A stretch of 64,000 nucleotides of DNA from an uncultured Gammaproteobacteria bacterium (GTDB lineage Bacteria; Pseudomonadota; Gammaproteobacteria; Arenicellales; JAANXG01): positions 3,159 through 67,158 of the forward strand of contig CALZGZ010000120.1 in NCBI GenBank assembly GCA_945787105.1. Reading direction: 5' to 3'. Shown in pieces: positions 1 to 33,710 of the stretch (position 1 is its first letter; each line of letters begins with the position of its first letter). The notes below the pieces were generated by a model. The model ran no database searches, was not told the DNA's origin, and saw nothing but the letters and a program-made list of their open reading frames with translations. Position numbers and translations under genes: made by a program.

Positions 1-2065
1 GTGGTTGCGCCTGATTGTGCAGATATTGGACGAAGTAGCTGCCGGTAACGTAACCTGGTTCTATGCTTGCCTGAATCTGATTGCGCGCGAAGTGGGCCGC
101 CAAGGCCTGGCGCCCGCACTCATGGCTCTGCGCGGCGGCGAAGTGTTTCGTGTTTGCAGGGTCACGATGGTACAGCACATCCGCGATGTGCCCGATGCTT
201 GCTTCCCCGAATTGGTCGAGGACTTTCAGTGTGAGATCATAAGTCTCACAGCCATTGACAGCGCCTATGCCCCCCAAGTCACGCCACGTATCGGCGCGTA
301 TGAGACAAAAGCGGCCTAGGTAAGGCACTGACCTCAACAGGTCCAAATTGAAATCGGGTTTAAACCTGGGATTATGGCGTTTGCCATCCACGTCGATTTC
401 ATCCTCATCCGTGTAAATGAGCCGCCAGTGCCGATGTAGGTCCATATACGCGGCACAGGTCATCAGCGAATGCGGAGACAAGCGGTCTCCGGGATCGAGA
501 ACTGCTACCCAGTTGCTCTTGGTTCTCTCCACGATGCGGTTTATGGCGCCTACTGGATCACCATGGTGAATGATGCTGCGCACCCGCTTGTGCGGCGCGT
601 CCGCCCGGCGGCGTGCGAATGCGCAGATGACGGTCAAGCGCCAGTTCTCGTATAGCTGGCCGCGCAACGACGCTACCGTCCTCGCCACTGCTGCATCGTT
701 TTCGTCCTCAACCACCATGAGCACCTCAATCTTGCGCCGAGACTGGGGCTTTTTTGCCGATCTCCCGGCACGGATCCGTCGATGAGGCTCCGGCCACGCA
801 TGTTTGTCCATCCACAATCGGTACAACTCCACAGAATCCGACTGCCCCGATGCAGCGTTGCGCAAACTCTGTTGGCGTCTTAATCGATCCAGCGTCAACG
901 CTCTGGTCTGCTGCACGGTGGCGTCAGTAACGGCATAGCGTCGGTAGATCTCTGCATACGGATCGGGAGATTCGTGTTCCGCGGCATACACCGGCTGATG
1001 GATCTCGACAGTGACCCTGGGCATGTGTGTAAACTCGAGCTGTGCGCTGTACCTGAGCAACAAGTCCCAATCTTCGCCAGCAGTTAGTTCTTGATCAAAG
1101 GCCCCCAATGCATCAACGCAAACCCGGCGGTGTGCGCAGGACGTGATCGGAATATAGTTTTGGATCAATAAATTATCCCGACTAAATTCGATACCTTGAA
1201 AGGGCAGATCGGTAAATACCGCAGTCCGTTGCCCATCCTTTACCGCCTCCGTTACCCACCGGGCATCCGTATACACAAAAACCGCTCGCGTCCCCTGCAT
1301 CAGCGCCACCACCGCGGACAGGTGATCCGGAAGATAGAGGTCTGTGGGATTCAAGTAACAGATGATCTCTCCACTGGCTGCATGTATAGCGGCGTTCCTA
1401 TCGGCCGCGGCATTGAAGGGCACACAACGATTGAGATGCAAAACCCGTCTACTGCCGCTGAATTCGGAGCTCGTCGGAACATCCGCACTTTCGTCGCCGA
1501 CGACAATGATCTCCCAGTTTTCATAGTCCTGCGCGAACACCGACCGCAGGGCGTGTCGCAAAAACAGTGCCTGGCCGTGCACAGGGATGACCACAGTGAC
1601 TAGGGGTTGTTCACCAAGCGGTGGCACCGACCTGATTTGGTCACGCGGCGAACGTCGGGACGCGGCCATCGATTTCTCATTACAGGACTGACCTTTGGAT
1701 TCGATCCCGCTAGGTCGTTGTGGTACCGTTTCAGTCGATCGTCGCTTGCGGTAGGCCGTGTGCAGATTCTCCGCGTCCTCGGTCAAACCGAGTTCACGCA
1801 GCAGCGTACACGCGTTGTTCACGAGTTCGGCATGCCCAGAAGATAACTCCAATCCCTGGACAAAGTGTTGCAACGCACGATTCGTGTCACCGAGTTGCAG
1901 AAAACACACGCCGAGGTTATTCAACGTCTCGGGATTCTCGTCATTGATCGCGAATGCGTGTTCAAACTTGACTACGGCTTCGGAAATTTCACCCCGTTCA
2001 AAAAGCAATTCACCTTCACGGTTCAATCGTGAACAGGTTTCTTTTGTCGTTTCGTTATTGTTCAT
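1..2065 (-). CDS. TPR-repeat + family-2 glycosyltransferase multidomain protein (N-terminal ~688 aa; C-terminus runs off the window start)
   Basis: Minus-strand frame is open from ATG at 2065-2063 down to base 1. It is absent from the ORF track, presumably because it has no stop inside the window. My translation gives MNNNETTKETCSRLNREGELLFERGEISEAVVKFEHAFAINDENPETLNNLGVCFLQLGD (TPR-like), then PLVTVVIPVHGQALFLRHALRSVFAQDYENWEIIVVGDES (GT2 signature), then WVAVLDPGDRL...LIYTDEDEIDVDGKRHNPRFKPDFNLDLLRS. I checked the frame at three separate positions (codons at 1603, 370 and 319). The last block parallels aa ~965-1025 of the protein at 28374-33710. Confidence 0.8.
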   Translation of the reverse strand, partial: MNNNETTKETCSRLNREGELLFERGEISEAVVKFEHAFAINDENPETLNNLGVCFLQLGDTNRALQHFVQGLELSSGHAELVNNACTLLRELGLTEDAENLHTAYRKRRSTETVPQRPSGIESKGQSCNEKSMAASRRSPRDQIRSVPPLGEQPLVTVVIPVHGQALFLRHALRSVFAQDYENWEIIVVGDESADVPTSSEFSGSRRVLHLNRCVPFNAAADRNAAIHAASGEIICYLNPTDLYLPDHLSAVVALMQGTRAVFVYTDARWVTEAVKDGQRTAVFTDLPFQGIEFSRDNLLIQNYIPITSCAHRRVCVDALGAFDQELTAGEDWDLLLRYSAQLEFTHMPRVTVEIHQPVYAAEHESPDPYAEIYRRYAVTDATVQQTRALTLDRLRRQQSLRNAASGQSDSVELYRLWMDKHAWPEPHRRIRAGRSAKKPQSRRKIEVLMVVEDENDAAVARTVASLRGQLYENWRLTVICAFARRRADAPHKRVRSIIHHGDPVGAINRIVERTKSNWVAVLDPGDRLSPHSLMTCAAYMDLHRHWRLIYTDEDEIDVDGKRHNPRFKPDFNLDLLRSVPYLGRFCLIRADTWRDLGGIGAVNGCETYDLTLKVLDQFGEASIGHIADVLYHRDPANTKHFAAAQSHECGRQALAAHFARNQIQASIEPGYVTGSYFVQYLHNQAQP

Positions 2066-2306
2066 GTACCAAGGGCACTAGAACGCAAAAAATGGGATTG
2101 GAGTGAACAACTCCGACCCCAGTTTTTCTTTAGATAGAAGCCCAAGTGCAGGCATCGGAGATCGAGTTCGGGCCGGGATAGCCCCGCCTTAAATGATACC
2201 AAGCAACCCGGAGAATCGGATGTCGCTGTTGCCCGCGGAAGACGCTTCGGGTGTCCCCGGTGTGTAGCCATGAATAGGGGCGGGACGCCTCGGTGCAAAA
2301 TGCGGG

Positions 2307-3503
2307 TTAGATGAACTGGAACAGGGACAGGTTCTGAATGCGGGCGAAACTTTGTTGAGCCACCTCCAAGGCAAGCAATTGCCGGTTCAAACGGCTCACC
2401 GCTTCCGCGAGATCGACGTCTTCGATATCCGATATCGATTGCTGGAGCTGAACGCTCATACCCGCATTCAAATTGGATTGGTCATCCAGGACATTGAGCC
2501 TGGCGCCGATTTCGGAGCGCGTGCCAGTTACCTTGTTTAGGACCTGATCCAGGTTGATCAACGCACGATTAACGCCCTGGGTCACTGCGGCCAAGTCGGC
2601 GTCGTCCGACACCGGGATCCTCAGAGCCGTGATGAGGTCGGACACCGTAGTAAACATATCCTGATTCTGGCTCGGCTCAATCGAGAAACTATCGCCTGAC
2701 GCAGGCGCACCTGTGATACGCACTTCGATACCGCTAAAATTGATAGTGTCATTGACAACATACGTCCCACTCGTCACCAACCCCCCTCCACCGTCACGAA
2801 CTTCGTAGGAGTTCGGTGTGATAAATGTGACGGAGTACGTATCCGGAATCCAGAGAGTCGGATCCATGACACTACCGTTGTCCATCACCCCCGATCCCAT
2901 ATTCAGCGCACTCGCACTCACCGTAAACGTGCCATTTCCGGTTCTAATGTCGCGGAAGATTTCCGCTCCCGAATCGGTGACTGGAATCTGTAGCGAAGGG
3001 CTGACCCGTAGATGGCGTTGACCTTCGTCGCCATTATAGTCAAAACCAGATCCCGAGTTCGGCGTAAACGACCGCGTACGGGCTTGAAATCCGGAAAAGA
3101 TGTATTCACCGTTGCTGGCCCTGGTATTGGCGAGCGCCAACAACTCGTTCAGCCGCTCATCAAGCTCCACGGCCATCACAAATCGTTCCTCGTCGGTCAA
3201 CGTACCATTGTTTGCCCCGACTGCGAGTTCACGAACACGCTGCAAAACGTCACTCACGTTCCCCAATACCGACTCCTCGAGAACGATAGAGTTGCGCGCG
3301 CTCATAATGTTTAATTCGTACTGCTCCGTTTGTGCGAGCATATCCCTCTTGTTGAGCGCCTTTGTGGCTCCCGTTGGATCGTCGGACGCCGTTAAGATCC
3401 GTTTCCCGGTGGCGACCTCAATTTGCGTACGGGCCGCACTCGATTGCTGTTTGAGGATCGCGTCCAGGCCCTGGGTAAAAATCTGCGAGGTACTAATGCG
3501 CAT
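2307..3503 (-). CDS. flgL: flagellar hook-associated protein 3 (hook-filament junction) FlgL
   Basis: 398 aa. N-terminus MRISTSQIFTQGLDAILKQQSSAARTQIEVATGKRILTASDDPTGA and a flagellin-like C-terminal helix. Starts 3 nt after the flgK stop. Confidence 0.9.
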   Translation of the reverse strand: MRISTSQIFTQGLDAILKQQSSAARTQIEVATGKRILTASDDPTGATKALNKRDMLAQTEQYELNIMSARNSIVLEESVLGNVSDVLQRVRELAVGANNGTLTDEERFVMAVELDERLNELLALANTRASNGEYIFSGFQARTRSFTPNSGSGFDYNGDEGQRHLRVSPSLQIPVTDSGAEIFRDIRTGNGTFTVSASALNMGSGVMDNGSVMDPTLWIPDTYSVTFITPNSYEVRDGGGGLVTSGTYVVNDTINFSGIEVRITGAPASGDSFSIEPSQNQDMFTTVSDLITALRIPVSDDADLAAVTQGVNRALINLDQVLNKVTGTRSEIGARLNVLDDQSNLNAGMSVQLQQSISDIEDVDLAEAVSRLNRQLLALEVAQQSFARIQNLSLFQFI

Positions 3504-13279: not shown

Positions 13280-13894
13280 CTACTTGGGCTTTTCGTGTCG
13301 AAGTTTTGCCGCCTGGCACTTTAGTATGTGTTTAATGAGGATGTCTCGATCGCTCTCATTGATCACTTCGAATTCAACCGCAATCCGATAAGGATGCGTG
13401 GGCAGATACCTCGATCGTCGCTCGCTGCGCACGACGGTCCCTCTGCACATAAGCGCAACGCAGGAGGACATCAGCAACAACTTCAGTTGCAGGTAAACAC
13501 CCGGGCTAATTCTCTCACCGGCGTAGAACGCCAGACCTCCGCCACTCAGACTTGCTTCCTTAACGCTGCCGTAGCCGGTTTCAACTTCCTGCAAAAGCAA
13601 CAGCCGGTACATCTCGTCCACACGAGACTCAAGATGCCGCAGATACTGCGCAACATCGGGCGATTGCTGCTCAATGCGAGAAAGTATCAAATCCTGGTTC
13701 CCGAGCAGACGCTTGGAGCCGCCCCGCAGTGAGTATAAGTCATCGGTATCGCCGTGATCGTCCTGCGCTTCACTGATGACGCGGTATTTGATGACGACTT
13801 GATCAGTGATCCTGAAATAACGCCGCCGCTCGCAACCCTCAAGATCCCCGTCCCGGTTGCGTGCTTGAACAGATTTTTCGATTCCGGTACTCAC
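13280..13894 (-). CDS. PilZ-domain (c-di-GMP receptor-type) protein with a long insertion between the two binding motifs
   Basis: 204 aa. RRxxxR motif (RRRYFR, aa 23-28) and a D/NxSxxG-like motif (SLSGGG, aa 115-120). Starts 20 nt after the motB stop, on the same strand. Confidence 0.7.
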   Translation of the reverse strand: MSTGIEKSVQARNRDGDLEGCERRRYFRITDQVVIKYRVISEAQDDHGDTDDLYSLRGGSKRLLGNQDLILSRIEQQSPDVAQYLRHLESRVDEMYRLLLLQEVETGYGSVKEASLSGGGLAFYAGERISPGVYLQLKLLLMSSCVALMCRGTVVRSERRSRYLPTHPYRIAVEFEVINESDRDILIKHILKCQAAKLRHEKPK

Positions 13895-16049: not shown

Positions 16050-16964
16050 ATGAACTATCTACTTTCCCCGCTGATTGGATCGAACACGCAGACTGCGGTG
16101 CCGGCGAGCGGAGCGGAAGCCGCTGTCCAGGCTGCGCGTTTGAACGAAGGGCAACTGCCGTTCCATTCACTGTTCAATCAGCAACTTCAGTTACTGCAGC
16201 AGCCTGGAATATTGGCGGGTCAGTCTCCTGCCATGATGGCACCCGCACCGTGGCAACCCTTTGCCATGGGCGGCCAAAGCTTGCCGCTGTCGTCCGCTGG
16301 CATAACGCCGTCTTCGGGTATCACTATAGAATCAGTGACCTACTCACGGATTTCAATGAACGGAAACGGAATTCTCAACACGGTCTACGATGGCTTGGAA
16401 CGGGATCCACAAAACGCCCTTGCCCAATTGCTGGCAAATATCGGTGAACCACCATCCAACGAACTATTGGTTACCGGGAAACCGGAAGGGGTAGCGTCGC
16501 ACACCGAGGCCGAGAAGTCGGATGCCAAGGCGGTGAACCGGTTGGCGCCCGGCTCCGACGAACTGAAGAACCCGGAATATCTCGGTGAAAAGATCGCGAA
16601 GGCGGTCGCCAATATCTCTACCGCGCAAGTTCCAAACGCCCAATTCGCTGTCGACCACCCAACGTATGGGCACGTTGAAGCAAGGGTCGATATCACGGAC
16701 GAGTCCGTCGATTTAGCGTTTGCGGTCCAGGACCCGGAGCTGCGCGCGGCACTCGAAGCGGCGAAGACGGCCATTGAACTCGCTCTGAGCAAACAAGGGT
16801 TAACCCTCGCCAAACTTGAAGTGGGGCCACCCCAGGACGTACCCGAAGTGATCACTCCGGGGACCCGCGAAGAATTGTTTGCATCCTACACTTCGCAACT
16901 CGACGCGGCATTGAACCGTATCATCAGTGACCTGGCGCTGGGTGTCCCCGACAATCGTGCGTAG
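16050..16964 (+). CDS. FliK-like protein (C-terminal flagellar hook-length control 'Flg_hook'-type domain)
   Basis: 304 aa. Low-complexity Q/P/A-rich N-terminal half. C-terminal GHVEARVDITDESVDLAFAVQDPELRAALEAAKTAIELALSKQGLTLAKLEVG resembles the FliK C-terminal domain. GGAG Shine-Dalgarno 7 nt upstream. Confidence 0.6.
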   Translation: MNYLLSPLIGSNTQTAVPASGAEAAVQAARLNEGQLPFHSLFNQQLQLLQQPGILAGQSPAMMAPAPWQPFAMGGQSLPLSSAGITPSSGITIESVTYSRISMNGNGILNTVYDGLERDPQNALAQLLANIGEPPSNELLVTGKPEGVASHTEAEKSDAKAVNRLAPGSDELKNPEYLGEKIAKAVANISTAQVPNAQFAVDHPTYGHVEARVDITDESVDLAFAVQDPELRAALEAAKTAIELALSKQGLTLAKLEVGPPQDVPEVITPGTREELFASYTSQLDAALNRIISDLALGVPDNRA

Positions 16965-18243: not shown

Positions 18244-18739
18244 GCTCTCACCGGACCAAATCGCACGTTACGCGGAGTCGCTTCTGACCTTATTCCAGCG
18301 GGAGCATGAGCTCTTGTGCTGTTTGCTTGAATCCATTGATTTGGAATTGGCCGCACTCCAGGCAACCGATGTTGCGGAGATTGAAAACGCCGCCGAGAGT
18401 AAACATCGCCTCATAGAAGAGTTGGAGCAACAGGACAAGGTACGTCGGGCACTGCTGACTGAGGCTGGGTTTATGTCCAATCCTTCCGGCATCGATCAGT
18501 TCATACTGCGATGCGACCCCGAACTCCGTCATGCTTTAAGAGGCACCTGGGACGAGATCCAGGCGCTAATCAGACGCTGTCAAAATGACAATACGAGAAA
18601 TGGTGAACTCAACGCCCTGTCTCAACGGATTGTGAAGCATATGTTGTCTTTTCTACGTGGAGAGTCGCCCGACAACAACGTCTATAACCAGGACGGTCAA
18701 GTTCCAGATATCACACAGAAAGTTTTGGGACGCGTCTAA
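18233..18739 (+). CDS. flgN: flagellar export chaperone FlgN family
   Basis: 168 aa helical protein. Its GTG start overlaps the flgM stop. The FlgN-like N-terminal coiled region and the gene order support the call. Confidence 0.75.
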   Translation: MDAKLSPDQIARYAESLLTLFQREHELLCCLLESIDLELAALQATDVAEIENAAESKHRLIEELEQQDKVRRALLTEAGFMSNPSGIDQFILRCDPELRHALRGTWDEIQALIRRCQNDNTRNGELNALSQRIVKHMLSFLRGESPDNNVYNQDGQVPDITQKVLGRV

Positions 18740-25076: not shown

Positions 25077-26282
25077 TTGGTTCTGCCCGCACCATCGCCG
25101 GCTCATCCTTCGCCACGCCTAGTTGACACCGGTCGCCGGGGCGCCGAGGCGTTTCTAGTCTTTGGCGGGACCAATCTGAGGGCAATTATTGCATTTTGCC
25201 GCGAATTGGAACGGCTGGGGCGGAGTTTTTCGATTATTACCCGCGGCGTAGAAGACGCGTTGCAAAAGACATGCTTCAAGAGCCACATCCATGCAGTGCG
25301 GCGTAAAGACCAGTTGGACTGGACCGATATCTCCCGCGCCATCACCCAGGCTCAACACCAAAGCGGCAAGCATTCCTTTTGTATCTGCCCCTCCTCCGAG
25401 GCGCTCAACCGGTTTTTGCTGGACCATCGCACCGAACTCGCGAAACTCGGATGCACACTGCCGCTCGTGAATGCCGAGACCTATCATCGGATATCCGATA
25501 AGTACAGCTTCCAGTCGATCTGCCAATCCAAAGGACAGCCCGTGCCACGCATGTACTTATCCGTTAATGCTCTCGAATTCCCCTGCGTGGCAAAGCCGTA
25601 TCGGAATCTCGTTGATGGCCGGATTCTGTATCCGGTGATATTGCGCGGCGATACCGACCTTCAGGCGTTCCACCACCAGTGCGATGCAGGAGAGTATTTC
25701 TATCAGGCTTACGTTGCCGGGCCCAGCCACTATCTTTTGTTCTATGTCCGGCGGGACGGAAGCGATGTCCGGTTTTCGCAGGAGAATCTGTTGCAACAGG
25801 CCGGAGGTAAATCGATCGTCATGGCGCGCAGCGCGAATCTGCATCAAGCGCCCATCGCCGAAAGCTACAAGTCCATATTAATCGGACTCGAATTTCACGG
25901 CCTGATAATGATCGAACTGAAAGGAGGCGGCGGTCACTATACGATGATCGAGGCCAACCCGAGGTTGTGGGGACCGCTGCAATTGTCAATGGACGGCGGT
26001 AGCAATCTCGTGCGGGCTTTCATACAGGATCAGTTGGCTGTCCGCGCAATGAGTTCGGGGGCCACCGATATCCGCAGCGCGCGATATTTCTGGCTGGGCG
26101 GCGTACTGCAAAACCTGCTATCACAACATGCTCTGCAGAAACACCCTGATAATCGTCGGCTGCGCTTTTCGGACATTGCTTGTGGCGTGTGCTCCGATAT
26201 CTACCTGCGTCCGGGCACCGCGCGATTATTTCTTCACGAGATCATCCACACGTTCACGATGCGAAGACGGAGGGAAATATGA
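25077..26282 (+). CDS. ATP-grasp fold ligase-like protein
   Basis: 401 aa. N-terminal Rossmann-like FLVFGGTNLRAIIAFCREL; central PCVAKPY...YFYQAYVAG...HGLIMIELKGGGGHYTMIEANPRLWG resembles ATP-grasp. TTG start with a weak RBS. Confidence 0.65.
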   Translation: MVLPAPSPAHPSPRLVDTGRRGAEAFLVFGGTNLRAIIAFCRELERLGRSFSIITRGVEDALQKTCFKSHIHAVRRKDQLDWTDISRAITQAQHQSGKHSFCICPSSEALNRFLLDHRTELAKLGCTLPLVNAETYHRISDKYSFQSICQSKGQPVPRMYLSVNALEFPCVAKPYRNLVDGRILYPVILRGDTDLQAFHHQCDAGEYFYQAYVAGPSHYLLFYVRRDGSDVRFSQENLLQQAGGKSIVMARSANLHQAPIAESYKSILIGLEFHGLIMIELKGGGGHYTMIEANPRLWGPLQLSMDGGSNLVRAFIQDQLAVRAMSSGATDIRSARYFWLGGVLQNLLSQHALQKHPDNRRLRFSDIACGVCSDIYLRPGTARLFLHEIIHTFTMRRRREI

Positions 26283-27154
26283 GGGCGGCGACCGACCTGA
26301 TAACGGAGTTGCGTGCGCTGTACTTCGATGGATCGAAACACACCTCGTATCAGAACGTGCCCGCCTTCGTTGAGGACGCGTTAGGCTTTCAGGTTTCGAT
26401 TGATGAGTGCTGGCGCAGTGACAAACCCCGCTACCGGTATCTGTTGGAACATTGTCCCCCGCAACCTGGTGAGCACGTCATCGACATCGGGGCAAATACC
26501 GGCTATTTCGCACTGAGCCTTGCACAACGCTTTACAAAGTGCCGCTTCACTGCTTACGAGTTCCATCCACAACACGTGGGATTCATGAGGCTTGTGCGCA
26601 TCGCATTTCAGCTGCACAACCTCGAAATCGAACCGAAACCGGTCAAGGTGGCGGATTCACACCGTCTGCCGCCCTACGATCTGGTGCTGTTTATGAACGT
26701 ATTGCACCACCTGGGTTGCGACTTCGACATCGACGTCGGGCGGAGCAACGACGAGTTCCGGGAAATGGCGGTGGCGATGCTAGGCGGTTTGAGGCAAGCG
26801 GGAAACCGAATGCTATTTCAGATGGGCACGAATCGTGGGGGGGATAAGTCCAATCCGATTGTCGACGCCCGAGACGAACCGCGCAAACTCGCCTATCTTA
26901 CCGACCTGCTCCTGGCCGCCGGGTGGGACATTGACCACATCGCCTTTGCACAAAAGCTCCCAGACGGTGACATCCGATTTCGAAACCTTCCGCGGACCCT
27001 GATCAAAGAAATCTGCGACCGGGCTCGCTCGTCCTCGGCAATCACTGCGAAGACCTTGCACGCACGAGCACCGTGGCTCGACCTGGACTGCTTTCCCGGT
27101 GAGTTTTACCGGCGGCCACTGATCGCATGCCGGGCGGTCGGAGGACCATCGTGA
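26279..27154 (+). CDS. class I SAM-dependent methyltransferase
   Basis: I moved the start to ATG 26279, which forms an ATGA overlap with the upstream stop and has GGAGGG 6 nt upstream. SAM motif VIDIGANTGYFALSLAQ; FMNVLHHL block. Confidence 0.75.
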   Translation: MRAATDLITELRALYFDGSKHTSYQNVPAFVEDALGFQVSIDECWRSDKPRYRYLLEHCPPQPGEHVIDIGANTGYFALSLAQRFTKCRFTAYEFHPQHVGFMRLVRIAFQLHNLEIEPKPVKVADSHRLPPYDLVLFMNVLHHLGCDFDIDVGRSNDEFREMAVAMLGGLRQAGNRMLFQMGTNRGGDKSNPIVDARDEPRKLAYLTDLLLAAGWDIDHIAFAQKLPDGDIRFRNLPRTLIKEICDRARSSSAITAKTLHARAPWLDLDCFPGEFYRRPLIACRAVGGPS

Positions 27155-28377
27155 GCATCAAGCGGCTCACCTTGTTCGGCGGTGATCCGGAATTCAGCCG
27201 CACGCTCCATGTCGGTACGCCAAACATCGGCGACACCAAGCGATTTCTAACGCGGGTCGAAAACCTGCTGAACAGGCGCGTACTCACCAACCGCGGTCCA
27301 CTGGTCCGCGAACTGGAGAGTCGCATGACTGAGCTGCTGAGCGTCAAACACTGCGTAACCATGAGCAACGGTACCGCGGCATTGGAAATCGCCACACGGG
27401 CCCTCAATTTCAAGGGCAACGCAATCGTCCCCGCACTGACGTTTGTCGCCACCGCCCATGCGTTGGAATGGCAACGCGTGCGGCCGATATTCGCGGACAT
27501 CATGCCCACCACACACCATCTGGACCCCCGCTGGATCAGACGCTTGGCCACTTCACTGACCAGCGGTGTCATCCCGGTGAATCTGTGGGGGCGCACCGTG
27601 GACATCGACGCGGTCGTGGCAGAGGCTACTATGCGCGACCTGGCCGTCGTGTTTGACTCCTCTCACGCTTTCGGTTGCACCTACAAGGGAAAGCCAGTCG
27701 GTGGATTCGGCGATGCGGAGATTTTTAGCTTCCACGCCACCAAATTCGTCAACACCTTCGAGGGCGGCGCGGTCACAACTAACGACGACGCGTTGGCGGA
27801 ACGGATCAGGTTGATGCAGAACTTCGGTTTCGCGGATCGCGATGAAGTCATACACGTGGGCATCAATGGAAAAATGAATGAAGTCCAAGCCGCCATGGGT
27901 CTCACGTCGGTAGAGGCAATGAAAGGCTTTATCTCACACAATCACGAGAACTATTGTGCCTATCTCGAGGGCCTCAGATACCTGGACGGTATCAACCTCA
28001 TTGAATATGACGCAGCGGAACGAAACAATTACCAGTACATAGTGATTGAAGTCGATGACGTCGTGACCGGACTACACCGGGACCAACTCATGCAGGTGCT
28101 ACATACCGAGGGCGTGGACGCCAGGCGTTACTTCTACCCGGGGTGTCATCGTATGGAACCCTACCGCTCGCGGCCAAAACCCAATGGCCAGGATCTTAAG
28201 CTGACGGACGAGATGCTTGCTCGCGTTTTGACACTGCCCACCGGGACCGCGGTGACCACGGGTGATATACGTCGCGTCGTTGCGCTGATGCAACGCATAC
28301 ACGAACGGCGAAACGACATCTCCCGCAAACTCGCGAAAAACGACCGCACTACTAGATTGACGAACTCGAGAAGGTGA
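27151..28377 (+). CDS. DegT/DnrJ/EryC1/StrS-family PLP-dependent sugar aminotransferase
   Basis: I moved the start to GTG 27151, which forms a GTGA overlap and has GGAGG 7 nt upstream. SNGTAALEIA and FDSSHAFG...EIFSFHATKFVNTFEGGAV are present, the latter holding the PLP-lysine context. Confidence 0.9.
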   Translation: MSIKRLTLFGGDPEFSRTLHVGTPNIGDTKRFLTRVENLLNRRVLTNRGPLVRELESRMTELLSVKHCVTMSNGTAALEIATRALNFKGNAIVPALTFVATAHALEWQRVRPIFADIMPTTHHLDPRWIRRLATSLTSGVIPVNLWGRTVDIDAVVAEATMRDLAVVFDSSHAFGCTYKGKPVGGFGDAEIFSFHATKFVNTFEGGAVTTNDDALAERIRLMQNFGFADRDEVIHVGINGKMNEVQAAMGLTSVEAMKGFISHNHENYCAYLEGLRYLDGINLIEYDAAERNNYQYIVIEVDDVVTGLHRDQLMQVLHTEGVDARRYFYPGCHRMEPYRSRPKPNGQDLKLTDEMLARVLTLPTGTAVTTGDIRRVVALMQRIHERRNDISRKLAKNDRTTRLTNSRR

Positions 28378-31300
28378 ACGACATGGCAGGTCAAATACTC
28401 GTAACCGTGGTGATTTCGACCTACAACCACGAACATTTCATCGGCCGCTGCATTGAAAGTGTTCAACTGCAGAACGTTTCGCCAATGGAGATCATTATTC
28501 TGGATGACTACTCCTCGGACAACACCCCCGGCGTCATCGAAGATTTCCGATGTGACAAACGAATCACCTACGTAAGAAACCCGGAAAACATCGGACCACG
28601 CCTGAACAACACCCGCGCCCTCGAAGTAGGGAGCGGACGATATCATGTCTGGTTGCATGGGGACGACTACCTGCTCCCCGGCCACCTCGAGCGGATCATC
28701 GGTGGTCTCGAACAACGTCCCGAGTGTTCCCTGGGATACGCGCCGCCGGTGTTTGTCGATGCGGCCGGGGAGACCTTACAAACCCCGGACCATCCCGGCC
28801 GTTCCAAACAGGATTATGCCGGTGGCCGCAATGAACTGGCGTTACTGCTCATTCATGACAACTATATTGTCCCTTCGTCCGTGGTGTTCCGGCGGAGCGA
28901 GTTAAACCGGGTCGGCAACTTCCATCCATCCATACCTGGCGCCGACTGGGACCTGTACACGCGTGTCGCGATACAAAATCCCAATTTCTACTACACGAAC
29001 ACCCTCGGCGTCGGCTATCGTTTTCACCCGGGGCAAGTATCGGTGCAGTTCTACGCCAATACCGATCCGCTCAAGGCACATCTCCATGTGGTAGAACAGG
29101 CCATGTATTCCAAAGCCGCCGGCCGGTTGCAGGGTCGCGAACTGGAGATCCTGGACTATCTCAACCGGCGCATCCAATCCTTTGGCGCGGCGGCCTGGAC
29201 ACAAGACCAAGACATACGCCGCGTCCGGGGAATGCTTGCGCGGCACTCATCAGTGCGAACGCCGGCGGCTGTTGGCCGAACGCCAACGATCAGTATCGTT
29301 ATTCCCTGCTACCGGCAGGCGCAGTACCTGACCGACGCGTTGGACAGCGTACTGGCTCAGGGCTTTGAAGACTGGGAGTGCCTGGTTGTCGATGATGGGA
29401 GTCCGGACGACACGGCGCAGGTAGTGACCAGATTCATTAAAGACCACGGCGAATCCAGAATCCGCTTGATCACCAAATCTAACGGCGGGCTCGCCAGCGC
29501 CCGTAACGCCGGCGCCGCGGAATCCCGCGGCCGCTACATCCTGCCGCTGGATGCTGACGACAAACTGCATCCGGACTACCTTACAGAAACGGTAGCCGTT
29601 CTTGATCGCGACCCTGAGACCGATATCGTTTATGTGGACGAACAGAATTTTGGTTTGGCCGGCCACGTGCATGTCAAAACCCAGGTATCCCTGGAAGCGC
29701 TCAAACAGCACAACGTCCACGACTATTGCAGCCTGTACCGCCGCAAAGTCTGGGAGCAAATCGGCGGATATTCGCCGGCCATGTATCTGGGCGGCGAAGA
29801 CTGGCAATTCTGGCTCGCGGCGTCGGCTCACGGTTTCCGGTCGCACCATCTGCGCAAGCCGCTGTTTTTGTACCGAAACCGCGAGCACACCATGGTCAGC
29901 GAGACCCAGGCACATCTCGGTCTCGTACGTGCACAGCTTGTCCTGCATCATCCAGGGATAGTTGGATCCGGTGAGATTCGCGCTGCAGAAGACACTGTGA
30001 AACGGACCCCGGCCCCACTTCGGGAAAAACTCCGGCAGGCGCTGCTTAAGCATACGGACAATCCTTTGTTGTGCCGGTTCAGCCAGCTGGCCGATGCGGG
30101 CGCACGAGACGCCCCGCTGGAACTGCCGTCACTCATTGATCCGCCGCTGGTTTCGGTCATCGTGACGACCATGGACCGTCCGGAGTTTTTAAAGGACGCG
30201 GTAGACTCGTTGGTGAGGCAAACCTACGAGAATTGGGAGGCGATCATCGTCAACGACGGTGGGGATGATATTGGCGATTGGATTACCACCGCCGATCCAA
30301 CCGGCCGGATTCATTACATTCGACATCCGCAAAATTGTGGGCTGTCGGCGGCACGGAACACCGGCATTTCGCTGTCCTCGGGAGAGATTCTGTGCTACCT
30401 GGACGACGATGACCGTTTGTTTCCGGACCACCTTGAAACCATTGTCGACGCCATGCAGACGAACAATACCAGTCTGGTCTATACCGAGGCCGAGTACGTG
30501 CGGGAACTCATCGAAGACGGCCAGCGCAGAGACCTGTCGCGCACGTCGCCGTATTCGCATATCGATTATTCCTTGGAACGGTTGCATATCGGTAACTTCA
30601 TCCCGGTAAACACCTGGGCCCACCGGCGGGAGCTGATCGCTTACGCCGGGGACTTCGACGTGACGCTCCATGCCCTCGAGGACTGGGACCTGTTGCTGCG
30701 GCTCGCGCGCATTACCACACCTGAGCACATCCCGAGGATCACGGCAGAGGTGCGGCTCCGTCCGGGAACGGTGAACGATAACATGAGCCAAAGAGCGCGC
30801 GGCGACTTACCCGCCCTGCATCGCAAGATCTATGCCCGCTACGCAATGCCGGGAAACCACAATGTGGACCGGCAACGAGAACGAATGCTAAAGCAACTCG
30901 AGACGGATCCGGCACCAACCAAACCCGCTGCAGCCACGCAACACCGCTATGACCAATGGCGGCAACGCCACACGCTAACTGAGAGCCAGGCACAGTACAT
31001 GGCGGAGCGAATGATGCTGACGTGGCAGGTACGGCCAAGCATTCAACTTATCGTCACCCACCAGGCGGGACAGGAGGACGCACTGGCCGACACCCTCGAC
31101 AGCCTGGGCCAGCAGTTGTACAAAGGGTGGGGCCTCAGCGTTGTGTCTCCGTGTCCCTGCCCCGACGACAGCTTCAATCGATTACCCAACCTGGAGTGGG
31201 TGGAGGCGCAAGGCGACCGCATCGCCGGTATAAACGGTGTCGTCGGCGATTCTCAGGCTGACTGGATCGTTCAACTCGACGCAGGCACGCGTTTTTCCCC

Positions 31301-33710
31301 GGACGCACTGTTTCGATGGGTCGATTACATCAATCTGCATCCGCATTGGCAGTTGTTCTACTGTGATGAGGACCGCGTTTCGGCCGATGGGATACACCAT
31401 GACCCGCTGTTCAAACCGGACTTTAACTTGGATCTATTGCGATCGACATCCTATATGGGAGATGTGGTACCAGTGCGACGCGAGTTGCTGGCCCGGCTCG
31501 ACGGCTACGGCAGGAGAACGGGTGCTGGTGTCTACGACATGGCGCTGCGCGTGCTCGATGCCGAGGGCGAGTCGATCATCGGTCACATTCCGGAGGTGTT
31601 GATTCACTGCAGAGACCGCCCGGACCCGCAACGCGACGAACAGACCGTCGCCGAGAATCGGCGTCTCACCGTTGAAGACCATTTGCAGCGCAACCACATC
31701 CGGGCAACCGTTGGCCACAATCTGGTCCCCGGTACGTTCTTCGTCGACTATGCCTTAAGCGAGTCGCCGATGGTGTCGATCATCATCCCCTACGGGGACC
31801 AAATCGACCCATCGCGGTTGTGTCTATCGAGCGTACTCGAAAAGACCGACTATCCCCACTACGAGGTCATCGTGGTCGACGATCGTGGTTCGGATTCGGT
31901 CGCCACAAGCGAAATTGGAATGATCAACCAAAGCGCGCGAAACGTACGCGTGGTGCGGAATCCCGAGCCGGGAGGGATCCCGGCGATGCTCAATTTTGCC
32001 GCGCGCGAGGCGCAGGGAGTGTTCCTATTGCTGTTGGATCCCGGAACCCAAGCCATACATGCCGAATGGTTGGCTCGCATGGTGGCGGTCGCACTACGGC
32101 CCGAAGTCGGCGCGGTGGGCGCCAGACTGGTCGATCTCAATGGCCGTATCAAACAGGCGGGACTCGTACTCGGCATGCAGGACGGCGTGGGCCGCCCGTT
32201 CGCCGGAGCCGACATGCAGGCCGCCGGATACCTGGGACGCCACCAGGTGACGCAGAATTACTCCGCGCTTGAAGCGGGGTGCATGCTTGTCAAGCGTGAT
32301 CAGTTCTTACAGCTCGGCGGCTTGAACGCGCAAGAATTCAAGCAATCGTATTTTGACGCCGATTTCTGCCTACGATTGCAGGACGTGGGATGCAAGTTGG
32401 TGTGGACGCCGTTTGCAACCTTGCTGCACCACGGGACCACGGCGGTGCAGGGACAACCGAGCCCTGCGCACAGCAATACCCTTGCTGCGGAACTCACCGC
32501 CTTCCAGCAGCGTTGGCTAACCAGGCTCGCCAGCGATCCGGCGCACAACCCCAATCTGTCACTGGTGGAACAGACTATGCAAATCGAGGTCGAGCTCGCC
32601 GTTCCGTGGCTCGACAGACATCATCCCCGCCCACGGATCTGGGCCTTCCCGCTCAACGACCAGGGTGTCGGACAGTACCGGGTGCGTCAACCGCTTGACG
32701 CTTTGGATCGTGCGGCGCTCGCCGAGCATGCGTTGTTGCCACCCCACGAAAGGGTCGAAAGGGCACGCGTGCCAACGGTGTGCGAACTCGCCCGGGCCGA
32801 TGCCGATACGTTACTGATTCAACACGGATTCAGTGATCTGTTTCTGCGCTGGCTGCCAAAATATCGTGCACTGGATATCGCGTTTCTGGTATTCGGGTTG
32901 GACGATAACCTGCTCGAGATCCCCGAAACAAACGACCGGCGCGATAAACTACCGGCGGATCTCGAGCGGCGCATTCGGGAGGCCTTGTCCCATTGTCACC
33001 GGCTCATCGTGCCGACAGAACCTCTGGTAGAGGTTTACCGGAGATTCATCGACGACGTTCGCGTCGTTCCCAACCAACTTGAACAATGGCGGTGGCAACA
33101 CCTGCGGCCAGACCGTCGGCCAATGAAGGGCAGCGGCGGAAAGCCGCGCGTGGGCTGGGTCGGCGCCCAGCAGCACCGCGGTGATCTGGCTTTGCTGGCG
33201 CCGGTAATGAAGGCCCTGCACGAGGACGTCGATTGGGTCATGATGGGGATGTGTCCCGCGGCGCTTCGGCGCTACGTGCGCGAATTTCACCAACCTGTGC
33301 CCTATAGCCGTTATCCGGAAAAGCTGTCCTCGTTGAACCTGGATCTGGCCGTGGCGCCCCTGGAAATCAATGTGTTCAACGAATGCAAAAGCGATCTGCG
33401 CATCCTCGAGTACGGGGCGCTCGGCTGGCCGGTCGTTGCCACGGACATACATCCGTACCGTGGTAAACCGGTCACCCGCCTGTCGAATAGCGCAACCTTG
33501 TGGATCGACACGATCCGCGAGCGGATCAATGATCTAGAGGCGCTGGCCGCCGAGGGCAGAGCGCTGCGCGAGTGGGTTCACCAACATCGCTTCCTGGAAC
33601 ATCAGCTCATGCCGTGGTTCGAGGCAATGTTATCTGATGCGGTGCTCGGGCGCTTTCCGATGACTTATGGGAACGAGCAGAATGGTATTCCTTCCGCCGT
33701 GGCAAGATGA
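28374..33710 (+). CDS. giant multi-module glycosyltransferase (five GT2/GT-A-type modules + one GT-B-like C-terminal module)
   Basis: 1778 aa. The GTG start overlaps the aminotransferase stop (GTGA). Repeated GT2 signatures: VVISTYN..ILDDYSSDNT..HGDD; SIVIPCY..VVDDGSPDDT..LDADD; SVIVTTM..IVNDGGDD..LDDDD; LDAG..YCDED..FKPDFNLDLL; SIIIPYG..VVDDRGSD. The C-terminal CKSDLRILEYGALGWPVVATD is GT1/GT4-like. Confidence 0.9.
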   Translation: MNDMAGQILVTVVISTYNHEHFIGRCIESVQLQNVSPMEIIILDDYSSDNTPGVIEDFRCDKRITYVRNPENIGPRLNNTRALEVGSGRYHVWLHGDDYLLPGHLERIIGGLEQRPECSLGYAPPVFVDAAGETLQTPDHPGRSKQDYAGGRNELALLLIHDNYIVPSSVVFRRSELNRVGNFHPSIPGADWDLYTRVAIQNPNFYYTNTLGVGYRFHPGQVSVQFYANTDPLKAHLHVVEQAMYSKAAGRLQGRELEILDYLNRRIQSFGAAAWTQDQDIRRVRGMLARHSSVRTPAAVGRTPTISIVIPCYRQAQYLTDALDSVLAQGFEDWECLVVDDGSPDDTAQVVTRFIKDHGESRIRLITKSNGGLASARNAGAAESRGRYILPLDADDKLHPDYLTETVAVLDRDPETDIVYVDEQNFGLAGHVHVKTQVSLEALKQHNVHDYCSLYRRKVWEQIGGYSPAMYLGGEDWQFWLAASAHGFRSHHLRKPLFLYRNREHTMVSETQAHLGLVRAQLVLHHPGIVGSGEIRAAEDTVKRTPAPLREKLRQALLKHTDNPLLCRFSQLADAGARDAPLELPSLIDPPLVSVIVTTMDRPEFLKDAVDSLVRQTYENWEAIIVNDGGDDIGDWITTADPTGRIHYIRHPQNCGLSAARNTGISLSSGEILCYLDDDDRLFPDHLETIVDAMQTNNTSLVYTEAEYVRELIEDGQRRDLSRTSPYSHIDYSLERLHIGNFIPVNTWAHRRELIAYAGDFDVTLHALEDWDLLLRLARITTPEHIPRITAEVRLRPGTVNDNMSQRARGDLPALHRKIYARYAMPGNHNVDRQRERMLKQLETDPAPTKPAAATQHRYDQWRQRHTLTESQAQYMAERMMLTWQVRPSIQLIVTHQAGQEDALADTLDSLGQQLYKGWGLSVVSPCPCPDDSFNRLPNLEWVEAQGDRIAGINGVVGDSQADWIVQLDAGTRFSPDALFRWVDYINLHPHWQLFYCDEDRVSADGIHHDPLFKPDFNLDLLRSTSYMGDVVPVRRELLARLDGYGRRTGAGVYDMALRVLDAEGESIIGHIPEVLIHCRDRPDPQRDEQTVAENRRLTVEDHLQRNHIRATVGHNLVPGTFFVDYALSESPMVSIIIPYGDQIDPSRLCLSSVLEKTDYPHYEVIVVDDRGSDSVATSEIGMINQSARNVRVVRNPEPGGIPAMLNFAAREAQGVFLLLLDPGTQAIHAEWLARMVAVALRPEVGAVGARLVDLNGRIKQAGLVLGMQDGVGRPFAGADMQAAGYLGRHQVTQNYSALEAGCMLVKRDQFLQLGGLNAQEFKQSYFDADFCLRLQDVGCKLVWTPFATLLHHGTTAVQGQPSPAHSNTLAAELTAFQQRWLTRLASDPAHNPNLSLVEQTMQIEVELAVPWLDRHHPRPRIWAFPLNDQGVGQYRVRQPLDALDRAALAEHALLPPHERVERARVPTVCELARADADTLLIQHGFSDLFLRWLPKYRALDIAFLVFGLDDNLLEIPETNDRRDKLPADLERRIREALSHCHRLIVPTEPLVEVYRRFIDDVRVVPNQLEQWRWQHLRPDRRPMKGSGGKPRVGWVGAQQHRGDLALLAPVMKALHEDVDWVMMGMCPAALRRYVREFHQPVPYSRYPEKLSSLNLDLAVAPLEINVFNECKSDLRILEYGALGWPVVATDIHPYRGKPVTRLSNSATLWIDTIRERINDLEALAAEGRALREWVHQHRFLEHQLMPWFEAMLSDAVLGRFPMTYGNEQNGIPSAVAR

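What the first reader, a model, noticed from the sequence alone, without database searches (positions are those of the whole stretch)
1..2065. Hidden open-ended TPR-glycosyltransferase gene, paralogous to part of the giant GT 26 kb away
The ORF track shows only short plus-strand ORFs here. The minus strand, however, is open from ATG 2065 to base 1 and encodes TPR repeats, a GT2 module and a second module (LDPGD...YTDEDEIDVDGKRHNPRFKPDFNLDLLRS). That second module is collinear with aa ~965-1025 of the 1778-aa protein at 28374-33710 (LDAGT...YCDEDRVSADGIHHDPLFKPDFNLDLLRS). Two related multi-module GTs therefore bracket the flg genes. A TPR domain fused to a GT is the same design as the Caulobacter flagellin glycosyltransferase FlmG, where TPR binds flagellin and the GT domain modifies it.
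Basis: partly seen in the sequence, partly recalled or inferred. Interest (0 to 1): 0.55.

Follow-up and report, generated by a model that had tools for sequence, protein, structure and literature searches.

The report
Flagellin glycosyltransferase gene cut by window edge
The hidden reading frame is the first half of a 1311-residue sugar-adding enzyme encoded between flgL and the flagellin gene; it is related to the Pseudomonas flagellin glycosyltransferase FgtA, so it is a fairly ordinary new member of a known, widespread family.

Summary
The minus strand is open from ATG 2065 to base 1 (688 codons). It encodes three TPR repeats, a GT2 module and a second GT-A-fold module.

A near-identical public contig supplies the rest: a 1311-aa gene lying between flgL and a 282-aa fliC, followed by flaG-fliD-fliS-fliT.

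Residues 141-1304 are collinear with residues 578-1755 of the 1778-aa GT at 28374-33710 (40% identity). Residues 445-1304 match the C-terminal half of the P. aeruginosa FgtA-position protein (40% identity, E = 1e-161), which sits at the same flgL-fliC position.

The shared core is widespread. In 54 of 70 representative-genome loci with enough flank, a flagellin gene follows on the same strand.

The conserved parts, a GT2 module and a GT4-like GT-B domain, lie beyond the window edge. TPR occurs in only about 5 of 41 flagellin-adjacent relatives.

The giant paralog belongs to a separate clade. It follows an ATP-grasp/methyltransferase/VioA-like cassette, echoing the P. syringae two-locus system.

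Verdict: a real gene and a new member of a known kind. The FlmG analogy is loose; FgtA is the true relative.

The parts
1..2065 (-). 5' 52% (codons 1-688) of a 1311-aa flagellin-locus glycosyltransferase gene. The remaining 623 codons lie beyond base 1 and were recovered as L001:13503-15374.
   Evidence: Open frame; identity to L001 and the full gene sequence; Pfam domains.
1733..2056 (-). N-terminal TPR domain, aa 4-111: six helices forming three TPR repeats.
   Evidence: Pfam TPR_2, TPR_1, TPR_11 and TPR_19. The AlphaFold model shows helices 4-23, 27-40, 45-57, 61-74, 79-91 and 95-111 with pLDDT about 90. PDB sequence hits are consensus TPR proteins and the OGT TPR region.
1616..1732 (-). 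Disordered linker, aa 112-150.
   Evidence: pLDDT below 50 for aa 113-137; 16% identity among orthologs.
986..1615 (-). Module A, aa 151-360: GT-A fold (GT2) with a decayed DXD motif (YLNPTD where relatives have YLDDDD). Probably non-catalytic.
   Evidence: PF00535. In the alignment to 9jma, its LDDDD pairs with LNPTD. The family motif table shows the orthologs reading YLNDT[DE] and VIISSHREAA. Lowest conservation of the GT modules, 46%.
746..985 (-). Helical connector, aa 361-440.
   Evidence: Model helices 361-438; 38% identity among orthologs.
2..745 (-). Its DXD position reads LDPGD. It keeps the subfamily motif YTDEDE...FKPDFNLDLLRS.
   Evidence: Sequence match to the K4CP A2 domain, E = 0.0034. 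Distant homologs are regular GT2 domains reading LLDHDDLL plus the same motif. The fold search hits the tandem GT-A polymerases K4CP and PmHS2 over about 640 columns, E = 1e-22. The DXD position is variable family-wide.
2066..2306 (-). Intergenic region between the flgL stop and the GT start. No promoter or terminator can be called.
   Evidence: No sigma-70-like site on the minus strand and only weak terminator-like hairpins. Sequence read directly. Not conserved in the orthologous loci.
2307..3503 (-). flgL (hook-filament junction protein), the upstream neighbour that defines the island's left border.
   Evidence: Pfam Flagellin_N and Flagellin_C. Same order in L001, L003, L004 and P. aeruginosa.
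28374..33710 (+). Giant 1778-aa paralog: two extra N-terminal GT2 modules plus the A'-B'-C'-D' core. Module A' is intact (YLDDDD), module C' is decayed (LLDPGT), and the GT-B domain D' is intact.
   Evidence: PF00535 in four stretches; 40% identity over 1190 residues to the target; motifs; the D' model is a GT-B fold; separate clade with L027, L020 and L076.
25077..28377 (+). Sugar-tailoring cassette directly upstream of the giant GT: ATP-grasp-like (25077-26282), SAM methyltransferase (26180-27154) and a DesI/VioA-like dTDP-4-keto-6-deoxyglucose aminotransferase (27127-28377).
   Evidence: TIGR04427 PLP_DesI at 474 bits, E = 3e-142, which is below the equivalog cutoff of 650. DegT_DnrJ_EryC1 at E = 3e-95, Methyltransf_12, and a weak ATPgrasp_Ter match. 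The same gene order occurs in L007 and L027.

Best explanation
Bases 1-2065 (minus strand) are the first 688 codons of a 1311-residue soluble, cytoplasmic flagellin O-glycosyltransferase of the FgtA type. It is encoded in the glycosylation slot between flgL and fliC of a Pseudomonas-like polar flagellar cluster.

Architecture: three TPR repeats, a linker, GT-A module A, a helical connector, GT-A module B, GT-A module C and GT-B domain D.

Shown here: the open frame, the domains, the synteny, homology to the FgtA-position protein, and the family-wide linkage to flagellin genes.

Inferred: modules A and B are pseudo-enzymatic scaffolds, because their DXD motifs are lost and the nucleotide-binding Asp of module A is not conserved in the clade. 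Module C (VDNDS, LLNNDT, NDVDLCL, HH) and the GT4-like domain D (GWAGAQQH, K1221, E1228, D1063/D1064) carry the activity. Before export, they would transfer sugars from nucleotide sugars, probably a deoxyhexose such as rhamnose at the protein-linked position, onto Ser/Thr of the flagellin's variable central region (about aa 130-200). The TPR domain would act as an accessory docking module for flagellin or a flagellar chaperone.

The distant giant paralog probably extends the glycan with a modified 4-amino-4,6-dideoxyhexose (viosamine-type) sugar. It has complementary intact modules and sits beside an ATP-grasp/methyltransferase/VioA-like cassette. This parallels the fgt1/fgt2 plus vioA-vioM-vioT split in P. 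syringae.
For: - Open frame and domains.
- Full gene and flgL-GT-fliC-flaG-fliD-fliS-fliT order. The same order occurs in orthologs with 56-60% identity.
- Target aa 445-1304 aligns to aa 851-1694 of the P. aeruginosa protein at the PA1091/FgtA position at 40% identity, E = 1e-161. pa1091 mutants make non-glycosylated flagellin (PMC11833859).
- Family scan: 315 stretches in representative genomes. In 54 of 70 loci with at least 1.5 kb of downstream flank, a flagellin gene follows on the same strand, at a median gap of about 320 bp.
- 2,498 clusters at 50% identity carry domain D at E <= 1e-30. In nearly all of the 150 best hits it lies at the C-terminus of a 900-2500-aa protein.
- Motif and conservation analysis.
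- D is a GT-B fold. The model, built on the paralog's D', has pLDDT 91.5, and the top hits are PglA, GlgM, MshA, PimB' and BshA.
- Modules A and B form a tandem GT-A pair like K4CP.
- No transmembrane segment is predicted.
- VioA-like genes lie inside flgL-fliC islands next to family GTs in L012, L038 and L045.
- The P. syringae two-locus precedent comes from PMC3927599.
- A B-C-only homolog in pNGR234a follows rfbB-rfbD-rfbA.
- Flagellin glycosylation is cytoplasmic and genetically linked to its substrate (PMC12645811).
Against: - No biochemical data exist for this organism, which is known only as a MAG. Glycosylation of its flagellin is not shown.
- TPR is absent from most family members, so its role is not defined by the family.
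- In P. aeruginosa FgtA the GT2 module C itself lacks the catalytic Asp residues. Which domain performs the protein-linked transfer is therefore unresolved, even in the reference enzyme.
- No dTDP-rhamnose genes or other sugar-nucleotide genes lie next to the target.
- No conserved promoter links it to a flagellar regulatory class.
- The domain D model was built on the paralog's copy (42-55% identical), not on the target's own.
- Motif decay suggests loss of activity but does not prove it.
Confidence: 0.8

Rival explanations
1. FlmG-like reading. The TPR domain is the flagellin-binding specificity module and the adjacent GT2 module is the enzyme that modifies flagellin, as in Caulobacter FlmG.
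For: A TPR N-terminus is present and confidently folded. In FlmG the TPR domain is necessary and sufficient for flagellin binding (PMC7591256). The TPR region is moderately conserved among the four orthologs, at 52%.
Against: The GT2 module next to the TPR has lost its DXD motif, and in the orthologs also the nucleotide-binding Asp. Only about 5 of 41 flagellin-adjacent relatives have TPR. FlmG is TPR (313 aa) plus a single GT-B domain using CMP-pseudaminic acid. Here the TPR is about 110 aa, and none of the large ORFs scanned with Pfam in the window or its flank matched a nonulosonic-acid gene family. Sequence homology points to FgtA.
Confidence: 0.25
2. It is a polysaccharide (O-antigen or EPS) glycosyltransferase that merely happens to lie in the flagellar cluster and does not act on flagellin.
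For: Database names for relatives include 'O-antigen biosynthesis protein'. B-C-only homologs sit in rhamnan/O-antigen-type clusters, for example after rfbBDA on pNGR234a. The best structural matches of modules A and B are polysaccharide polymerases.
Against: The D-containing family is followed by a flagellin gene in 54 of 70 loci across Gamma- and Betaproteobacteria and Nitrospirota. [quoted passage not shown] There are no lipid-carrier, flippase or polymerase genes nearby, and no membrane segment is predicted.
Confidence: 0.07
3. It glycosylates another flagellar or surface protein (FlgL, FlgK, FliD or a pilin) rather than, or in addition to, the filament flagellin.
For: The gene lies directly after flgK-flgL. 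TPR domains can recruit diverse partners. A type II/IV secretion ATPase family gene (PF00437) lies elsewhere in the window.
Against: Conserved adjacency is to fliC on the downstream side; FlgL was detected upstream in only 16 of 80 loci. Characterised relatives act on flagellin.
Confidence: 0.06
4. The gene is a decaying, non-functional remnant.
For: Two of its four catalytic-type modules have lost canonical motifs.
Against: It is an uninterrupted 1311-codon frame, identical in two assemblies. Modules C and D are 67-77% identical among orthologs and keep all family-invariant residues.
Confidence: 0.03

Closest known systems
Pseudomonas aeruginosa FgtA (PA1091), the b-type flagellin glycosyltransferase
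   Same: It occupies the same chromosomal slot: flgL, island, fliC, flaG, fliD, fliS, fleP/fliT, fleQSR. It shows 40% identity over about 860 residues covering modules B and C and the GT-B domain D. The gene is required for any flagellin glycosylation (PMC11833859).
   Different: FgtA's N-terminal half is a CDP-glycerol-type phosphotransferase (PF04464), not TPR plus module A. FgtA's GT2 module C lacks the VDND and NND motifs that the target keeps. The FgtA island carries methyltransferase, HAD and NTP-transferase genes for a phospho-dimethylthreonine cap, which are absent here.
Pseudomonas syringae Fgt1/Fgt2 (flgL-fliC island) plus the separate viosamine island vioA-vioM-vioT
   Same: It has the same logic of two loci: large GTs beside fliC, and a second large GT (VioT, 1173 aa) beside a viosamine aminotransferase and a methyltransferase (PMC3927599). 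The flagellin is also short (282 aa in this MAG; I recall 282 aa for P. syringae, from memory). The size of VioT matches the roughly 1170-aa shared core.
   Different: Sequence homology to Fgt1, Fgt2 or VioT could not be tested because no sequence was reachable. Here acylation would be by an ATP-grasp enzyme rather than the VioB/VioS/VioR/ACP route. Here there is one GT at the fliC site rather than two. No TPR is reported for those proteins.
Caulobacter crescentus FlmG
   Same: An N-terminal TPR is fused to a glycosyltransferase that ends in a GT-B fold domain, and the enzyme is a cytoplasmic flagellin O-glycosyltransferase.
   Different: FlmG is 596 aa, with a 313-aa TPR domain and a single GT-B domain transferring pseudaminic acid. 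The target is 1311 aa, with about 110 aa of TPR and three GT-A modules between the TPR and the GT-B domain. No nonulosonic-acid genes were found nearby. No sequence comparison was possible.
Tandem GT-A polymerases K4CP (chondroitin polymerase) and PmHS2 (heparosan synthase)
   Same: They are the best structural matches of modules A and B, as two GT-A domains in tandem (E = 1e-22). There is also weak sequence similarity.
   Different: Those enzymes have two active DXD sites and polymerise polysaccharide. Here both DXD motifs are lost, and the similarity is in fold only (14-15% identity).
Maf-type flagellin nonulosonic-acid transferases
   Same: They are cytoplasmic flagellin glycosyltransferases encoded near flagellin genes.
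   Different: No Maf domain was reported by Pfam in the target or in any window ORF scanned. The donor class is different.
Burkholderia cenocepacia FlmQ (BCAL0111)
   Same: It is a predicted flagellin glycosyltransferase required for flagellin glycosylation and full motility (PMC4462625). From memory, it is described as carrying GT2 and TPR elements and transferring a viosamine derivative.
   Different: Its architecture and homology were not verifiable with the tools at hand.

Membership tests
FgtA-type flagellin glycosyltransferases (B-C-D core family) | Significant full-core sequence homology to P. aeruginosa PA1091/FgtA | tested here: met
   40% identity; target aa 445-1304 against aa 851-1694 of the FgtA-position protein; E = 1e-161. 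The reference protein was identified as PA1091 by its flgL-MTase-HAD-NTPtransferase-X-fliC(b-type) context, which matches PMC11833859.
FgtA-type flagellin glycosyltransferases (B-C-D core family) | Encoded between flgL and fliC in the polar flagellar gene cluster | tested here: met
   L001 gene order; the same order in the orthologous loci L003 and L004; 54 of 70 family loci have a flagellin gene downstream.
FgtA-type flagellin glycosyltransferases (B-C-D core family) | Conserved C-terminal GT-B domain with the family invariants (GWAGxxxH, FNxxKSNLRxxEYG, DD) | tested here: met
   Invariant residues are present in the target. The GT-B/GT4-like fold was shown for the paralog's copy. 2,498 clusters match at E <= 1e-30.
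FgtA-type flagellin glycosyltransferases (B-C-D core family) | The gene is required for O-glycosylation of flagellin | not testable with these tools
   This needs genetics or mass spectrometry. The organism is known only as a MAG (GCA_945787705.1).
FlmG-type flagellin glycosyltransferases (Caulobacter) | N-terminal TPR domain that binds flagellin | tested here: inconclusive
   Three TPR repeats are present, against a 313-aa TPR domain in FlmG. Binding is untestable here. TPR occurs in only about 5 of 41 flagellin-adjacent relatives.
FlmG-type flagellin glycosyltransferases (Caulobacter) | Two-domain TPR plus single GT-B architecture of about 600 aa | tested here: not met
   The target is 1311 aa, with three GT-A modules between the TPR and the GT-B domain.
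FlmG-type flagellin glycosyltransferases (Caulobacter) | Linked to a pseudaminic or legionaminic acid pathway (CMP-nonulosonate donor) | tested here: not met
   None of the large ORFs scanned in the 64-kb window or in the 10-kb flank matched a nonulosonate synthase or cytidylyltransferase family. The aminotransferase matches DesI/VioA (474 bits) far better than PseC (198 bits). Such genes could lie elsewhere in the genome.
P. syringae Fgt1/Fgt2/VioT | Sequence homology to Fgt1, Fgt2 or VioT | not testable with these tools
   AB061230, AB499894 and AF332547 are not in any reachable collection, and the original papers are not held.
P. syringae Fgt1/Fgt2/VioT | Two-locus organisation: a GT at flgL-fliC plus a large GT beside vioA and a methyltransferase | tested here: met
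   Target at the flgL-fliC site. Giant paralog directly after the ATP-grasp/MTase/VioA-like genes. Published arrangement in PMC3927599.
Maf flagellin glycosyltransferases | Maf (MAF_flag10) domain | tested here: not met
   Pfam scans of the full protein and its neighbours report no such family.
Canonical active GT2 (GT-A, inverting) for the in-window modules A and B | DXD metal-binding motif and nucleotide-binding Asp | tested here: not met
   Module A: LNPTD aligns to LDDDD of 9jma, and the orthologs read VIISSHREAA and VVIAGHNST at the nucleotide site. Module B: LDPGD aligns to LDSDD of K4CP and to LLDHDD of the subfamily consensus.

The most novel reading that the evidence does not exclude
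In the whole FgtA family the protein-linked (initiating) sugar may be added by the invariant C-terminal GT4-like GT-B domain, not by the GT2 module that gives these enzymes their annotation. P. aeruginosa FgtA attaches exactly one deoxyhexose, yet its modules B and C lack the DXD and nucleotide-binding Asp residues and no other GT is detectable in it. The TPR-bearing clade would then be a convergent 'TPR plus GT-B' protein O-glycosyltransferase, like FlmG and OGT, with pseudo-GT-A modules as spacers. The two paralogs in this genome (target: A dead, C intact; giant: A' intact, C' dead) would divide the labour of building one flagellin glycan.
Probability: 0.3. Interest if true: 0.5.

Novelty: new member of a known kind. 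Interest (0 to 1): 0.3.

Why it matters
Flagellin glycosylation affects motility, surface behaviour and immune or phage recognition. The Pseudomonas-type island between flgL and fliC is a textbook case. This window shows the same system in an uncultured gammaproteobacterium.

The family survey shows that the FgtA core is a large modular family of about 2,500 clusters at 50% identity, whose N-termini swap tailoring modules: GT2, GT1, methyltransferase, sulfotransferase and TPR. For annotation, the practical value is that a 'hidden' edge ORF can be named and its distant paralog linked to the same pathway.

The one point of wider interest is a hypothesis that mutagenesis could test. The motif pattern, including in P. 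aeruginosa FgtA itself, suggests that the GT-B domain rather than the GT2 module may be the flagellin-directed transferase.

Tried and rejected
- **Full-length homolog search.** It returned only 26 hits because candidates were swamped by generic GT2/TPR words. Searching with the C-terminal domain alone gave 383 hits, but mostly short unnamed fragments. Neither search returned a characterised protein.
- **Original Pseudomonas papers.** The P. syringae and P. aeruginosa papers (PMC262107, PMC1482937) are not held. Fgt1, Fgt2, VioT, OrfN, FlmQ and FlmG sequences could not be obtained, so those homologies remain untested.
- **OrfN to PA1091 link.** A literature search for this link gave no usable statement.
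- **Promoter and terminator analysis of 2066-2306.** There is no sigma-70-like site on the coding strand, and only weak hairpins. By eye there are only poor sigma-28-like and sigma-54-like matches. The intergenic DNA does not align among orthologs. No regulatory class could be assigned.
- **Sequence search of domain D against the PDB.** Nothing was found. The fold was resolved only by structure prediction.
- **Maf or nonulosonic-acid system.** No supporting domains or genes were found among the ORFs scanned, so this was rejected.
- **Recent tandem-type duplication.** This was rejected because the two paralogs fall in different clades, and the target is closer to fliC-adjacent GTs of other genera (46-53%) than to its in-genome paralog (about 43% in the core).
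- **Another GT domain in the N-terminal half of P. aeruginosa FgtA.** Nothing was found beyond the phosphotransferase domain. This does not exclude an undetected fold.
Full report
**Observation.** Translating the minus strand from 2065 to 1 gives 688 codons without a stop. An in-frame TAG lies four codons upstream of the ATG, and Met1 is invariant in the orthologs. The ORF lister shows only short plus-strand ORFs here because it omits ORFs that run off the window. Pfam finds TPR repeats (aa 15-100) and a GT2 domain (aa 157-281, E = 6.9e-21).

**Recovering the whole gene.** The exact FlgL protein encoded next door (2307-3503, minus strand) is on record on two MAG contigs. L001 (GCA_945787705.1, CALZIS010000001.1) matches the window with 1 mismatch in 13,503 bases and none in the gene fragment. 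There the gene is 1311 codons long. It lies between flgL and a 282-aa flagellin gene, followed by flaG, fliD, fliS, fliT, a WD40 protein and a sigma-54 activator. Three orthologs at 56-60% identity exist. The two whose contigs were read (L003, L004) occupy the same slot, followed by fleQ/fleS/fleR-like genes. Over its full length, residues 141-1304 are collinear with residues 578-1755 of the giant GT at 40% identity.

**Anatomy.**
- A model of the in-window 688 residues has mean pLDDT 84.5. It shows six helices forming three TPR repeats (aa 4-111), a disordered linker (113-137), an alpha/beta module A (156-358), a helical connector (361-438) and an alpha/beta module B (446-681).
- Its best structural matches are the tandem two-GT-A-domain polymerases K4CP and PmHS2, aligned over about 640 columns with E = 1e-22. 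Module B, which has no Pfam hit, is therefore a GT-A fold.
- Beyond the window edge come module C, a regular GT2 (PF00535, aa 691-867), and a roughly 350-residue C-terminal domain D with no Pfam or PDB sequence match.
- A model of the paralog's copy of D, built with 66 sequences, has pLDDT 91.5 and pTM 0.90. It is a complete GT-B fold closest to GT4-type enzymes: PglA, GlgM, MshA, PimB' and BshA at the top, with TarM and SdgB further down. There are 243 PDB hits at E <= 1e-3.
- Neither paralog has a predicted membrane segment.

**Which modules look active.**
- Module A: LDDDD of the solved GT2 enzyme 9jma aligns to LNPTD.
- Module B: LDSDD of K4CP, and LLDHDD of the wider subfamily consensus, align to LDPGD.
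- Module C: the DCD and DSD motifs of K4CP align to NND.
- Across 80 family members, module C (VDNxS, LLNNDT, NDVDLCL, HH) and domain D (GWAGAQQH, FNEAKSNLR) are nearly invariant. Module A, where present, normally reads VVNDGG...YLDDDD, and module B's DXD position is free to vary.
- The target and its orthologs have YLN[PD]T[DE] in module A, and some have also lost the nucleotide-binding Asp (VIISSHREAA).
- Mean identity among the four orthologs is 74-77% for D, 67% for C, 53% for B, 52% for the TPR and 46% for A.
- I infer that A and B are pseudo-enzymatic scaffolds and that C and D carry the catalysis. Both of the modules visible in the window are therefore probably inactive.

**The giant paralog shows the opposite pattern.** Its module A' is intact (NDGG, YLDDDD), as is one extra N-terminal GT2 (LDADD). 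Its module C' reads LLDPGT, and its ortholog L027 reads LDPET. The two copies are not recent duplicates. The target clusters with L003-L005. The giant clusters with L027, L020 and L076. Of these, L027 and L020 carry a VioA-like gene. None has a detected flagellin gene in its flank, though L076 is only 3.4 kb long.

**Link to flagellin.**
- A profile-guided scan of one genome per species found 315 stretches encoding the core, and 80 loci were fetched.
- Of 70 loci with at least 1.5 kb of downstream flank, 54 have a flagellin gene downstream on the same strand. The median gap is about 320 bp, and 36 lie within 1 kb. The flagellin gene is usually followed by flaG-fliD-fliS.
- The domain D profile finds 2,498 clusters at 50% identity with E <= 1e-30. 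In nearly all of the 150 best hits it lies at the C-terminus of a 900-2500-residue protein.
- Family members range from 899 to 2974 residues. Among 41 flagellin-adjacent members, the N-terminal extensions carry extra GT2 (30 members), GT1 (about 9), methyltransferase (about 7), sulfotransferase (3), GT9 (3) and TPR (about 5). TPR is thus an occasional accessory.

**Link to a characterised enzyme.** A tblastn search of annotated plasmid records hit a P. aeruginosa record. Its region reads flgK, flgL, SAM-methyltransferase, HAD phosphatase, NTP-transferase, a 1694-aa protein, fliC (B-type flagellin), flaG, fliD, fliS, fleP and fleQSR. This is the published pa1088-pa1091 island, in which pa1091 (FgtA) combines glycosyltransferase and phosphotransferase activities. 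Its disruption gives non-glycosylated flagellin, whereas pa1088-1090 mutants retain the core deoxyhexose (PMC11833859). Target residues 445-1304 align with residues 851-1694 of that protein at 40% identity, E = 1e-161. The target is therefore a homolog of FgtA in the same genomic slot.

**An open question in the reference enzyme.** In FgtA, module C lacks the catalytic Asp residues (LVASGP, LSLGAGV) and module B reads IHAGD, while domain D is conserved. The N-terminal half shows only the phosphotransferase domain. FgtA adds a single deoxyhexose, so the GT-B domain is the best candidate for that transfer. This is an inference, and it underlies the 'novel case'.

**The second locus.** Directly upstream of the giant GT lie three genes:
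- an ATP-grasp-like gene;
- a SAM methyltransferase;
- an aminotransferase whose best model is DesI, the dTDP-4-dehydro-6-deoxyglucose aminotransferase that makes viosamine (474 bits, E = 3e-142, below the equivalog cutoff).

The same four-gene order recurs in L007 and L027. VioA-like genes sit inside flgL-fliC islands next to family GTs in L012, L038 and L045. This mirrors P. syringae pv. tabaci, where fgt1/fgt2 lie upstream of fliC and a separate viosamine island holds vioA, vioM and the 1173-aa transferase vioT (PMC3927599). A B-C-only homolog on pNGR234a follows rfbB-rfbD-rfbA, which hints at rhamnose as a donor for this module type.

**Comparison with FlmG.** FlmG is 596 residues, with a 313-residue TPR domain that binds flagellins and one GT-B domain that transfers pseudaminic acid (PMC7591256). 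The target shares the idea of a TPR fused to a flagellin glycosyltransferase that ends in a GT-B domain. It differs in size and in having three interposed GT-A modules. It also differs in the likely donor chemistry, and its relatives usually lack TPR. The design analogy is acceptable as a lead; membership is not supported.

**Substrate and regulation.** The flagellin is 84-86% identical between the target's MAG and the two ortholog loci L003 and L004. It varies mainly between residues 130 and 200, where 12 Ser/Thr lie. No promoter could be assigned upstream of the GT. The rest of the window holds flagellar, chemotaxis, c-di-GMP and envelope genes, and no sugar-nucleotide genes other than the cassette.

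**Verdict.** This is a real gene, truncated by the window edge. It is a new member of the FgtA-type flagellin glycosyltransferase family, with a minority TPR N-terminus and two decayed GT-A modules. It is paired with a distant paralog in a viosamine-type cassette. It is ordinary in kind, with one testable mechanistic idea.

Noticed in passing
L001:19180-20571 (minus strand); also L003:17858-19246 and L004:17751-19199: A 462-482-aa WD40 beta-propeller protein (PF00400, 261 bits, 7 repeats) is conserved between fliT and the fleQ-like sigma-54 activator in all three related flagellar clusters. This is an unusual resident of that position.
   Followed up: no
L085:6451-11532 (P. aeruginosa NZ_CP131792.1): The FgtA-position protein, described in the literature as a GT2 enzyme, lacks the nucleotide-binding Asp and the DXD motif in its GT2-like module (LVASGP, LSLGAGV). 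It keeps the C-terminal GT-B domain intact.
   Followed up: partly
window 28374-33710 compared with window 1-2065 plus L001: The two paralogs show reciprocal motif decay. The target has module A dead (LNPTD) and module C intact (LNNDT). The giant GT has module A' intact (LDDDD) and module C' dead (LDPGT).
   Followed up: yes
window 16050-16964 (+) and 22621-23802 (+): Two separate ORFs carry a FliK-type hook-length-control domain (PF02120).
   Followed up: no
window 13280-13894, 18736-21090, 21094-21969, 37698-39008, 43230-44078: There is dense second-messenger wiring around the flagellar genes: a PilZ protein next to motAB-like genes, a PAS-GGDEF-EAL protein, and three stand-alone HDOD proteins, one of them with a cNMP-binding domain.
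   Followed up: no
NZ_CP131792.1 (L085): An 847-kb record labelled as a conjugative plasmid carries the core P. aeruginosa flagellar cluster from flgJ to fleR. It may be a misassigned chromosomal segment or a chromid-like element.
   Followed up: no
window 25077-26282 and 26180-27154: As listed from their TTG starts, the ATP-grasp and methyltransferase ORFs overlap by about 100 nt. The true starts are probably further downstream. The ATP-grasp assignment is weak (E = 9e-5, below the Pfam cutoff).
   Followed up: no
L053:2961-11885 and L060:3006-11816 (Azospira): These family members reach 2936-2974 residues, among the largest single-chain glycosyltransferases seen here. Flagellin genes lie about 3.6 kb downstream.
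   Followed up: no
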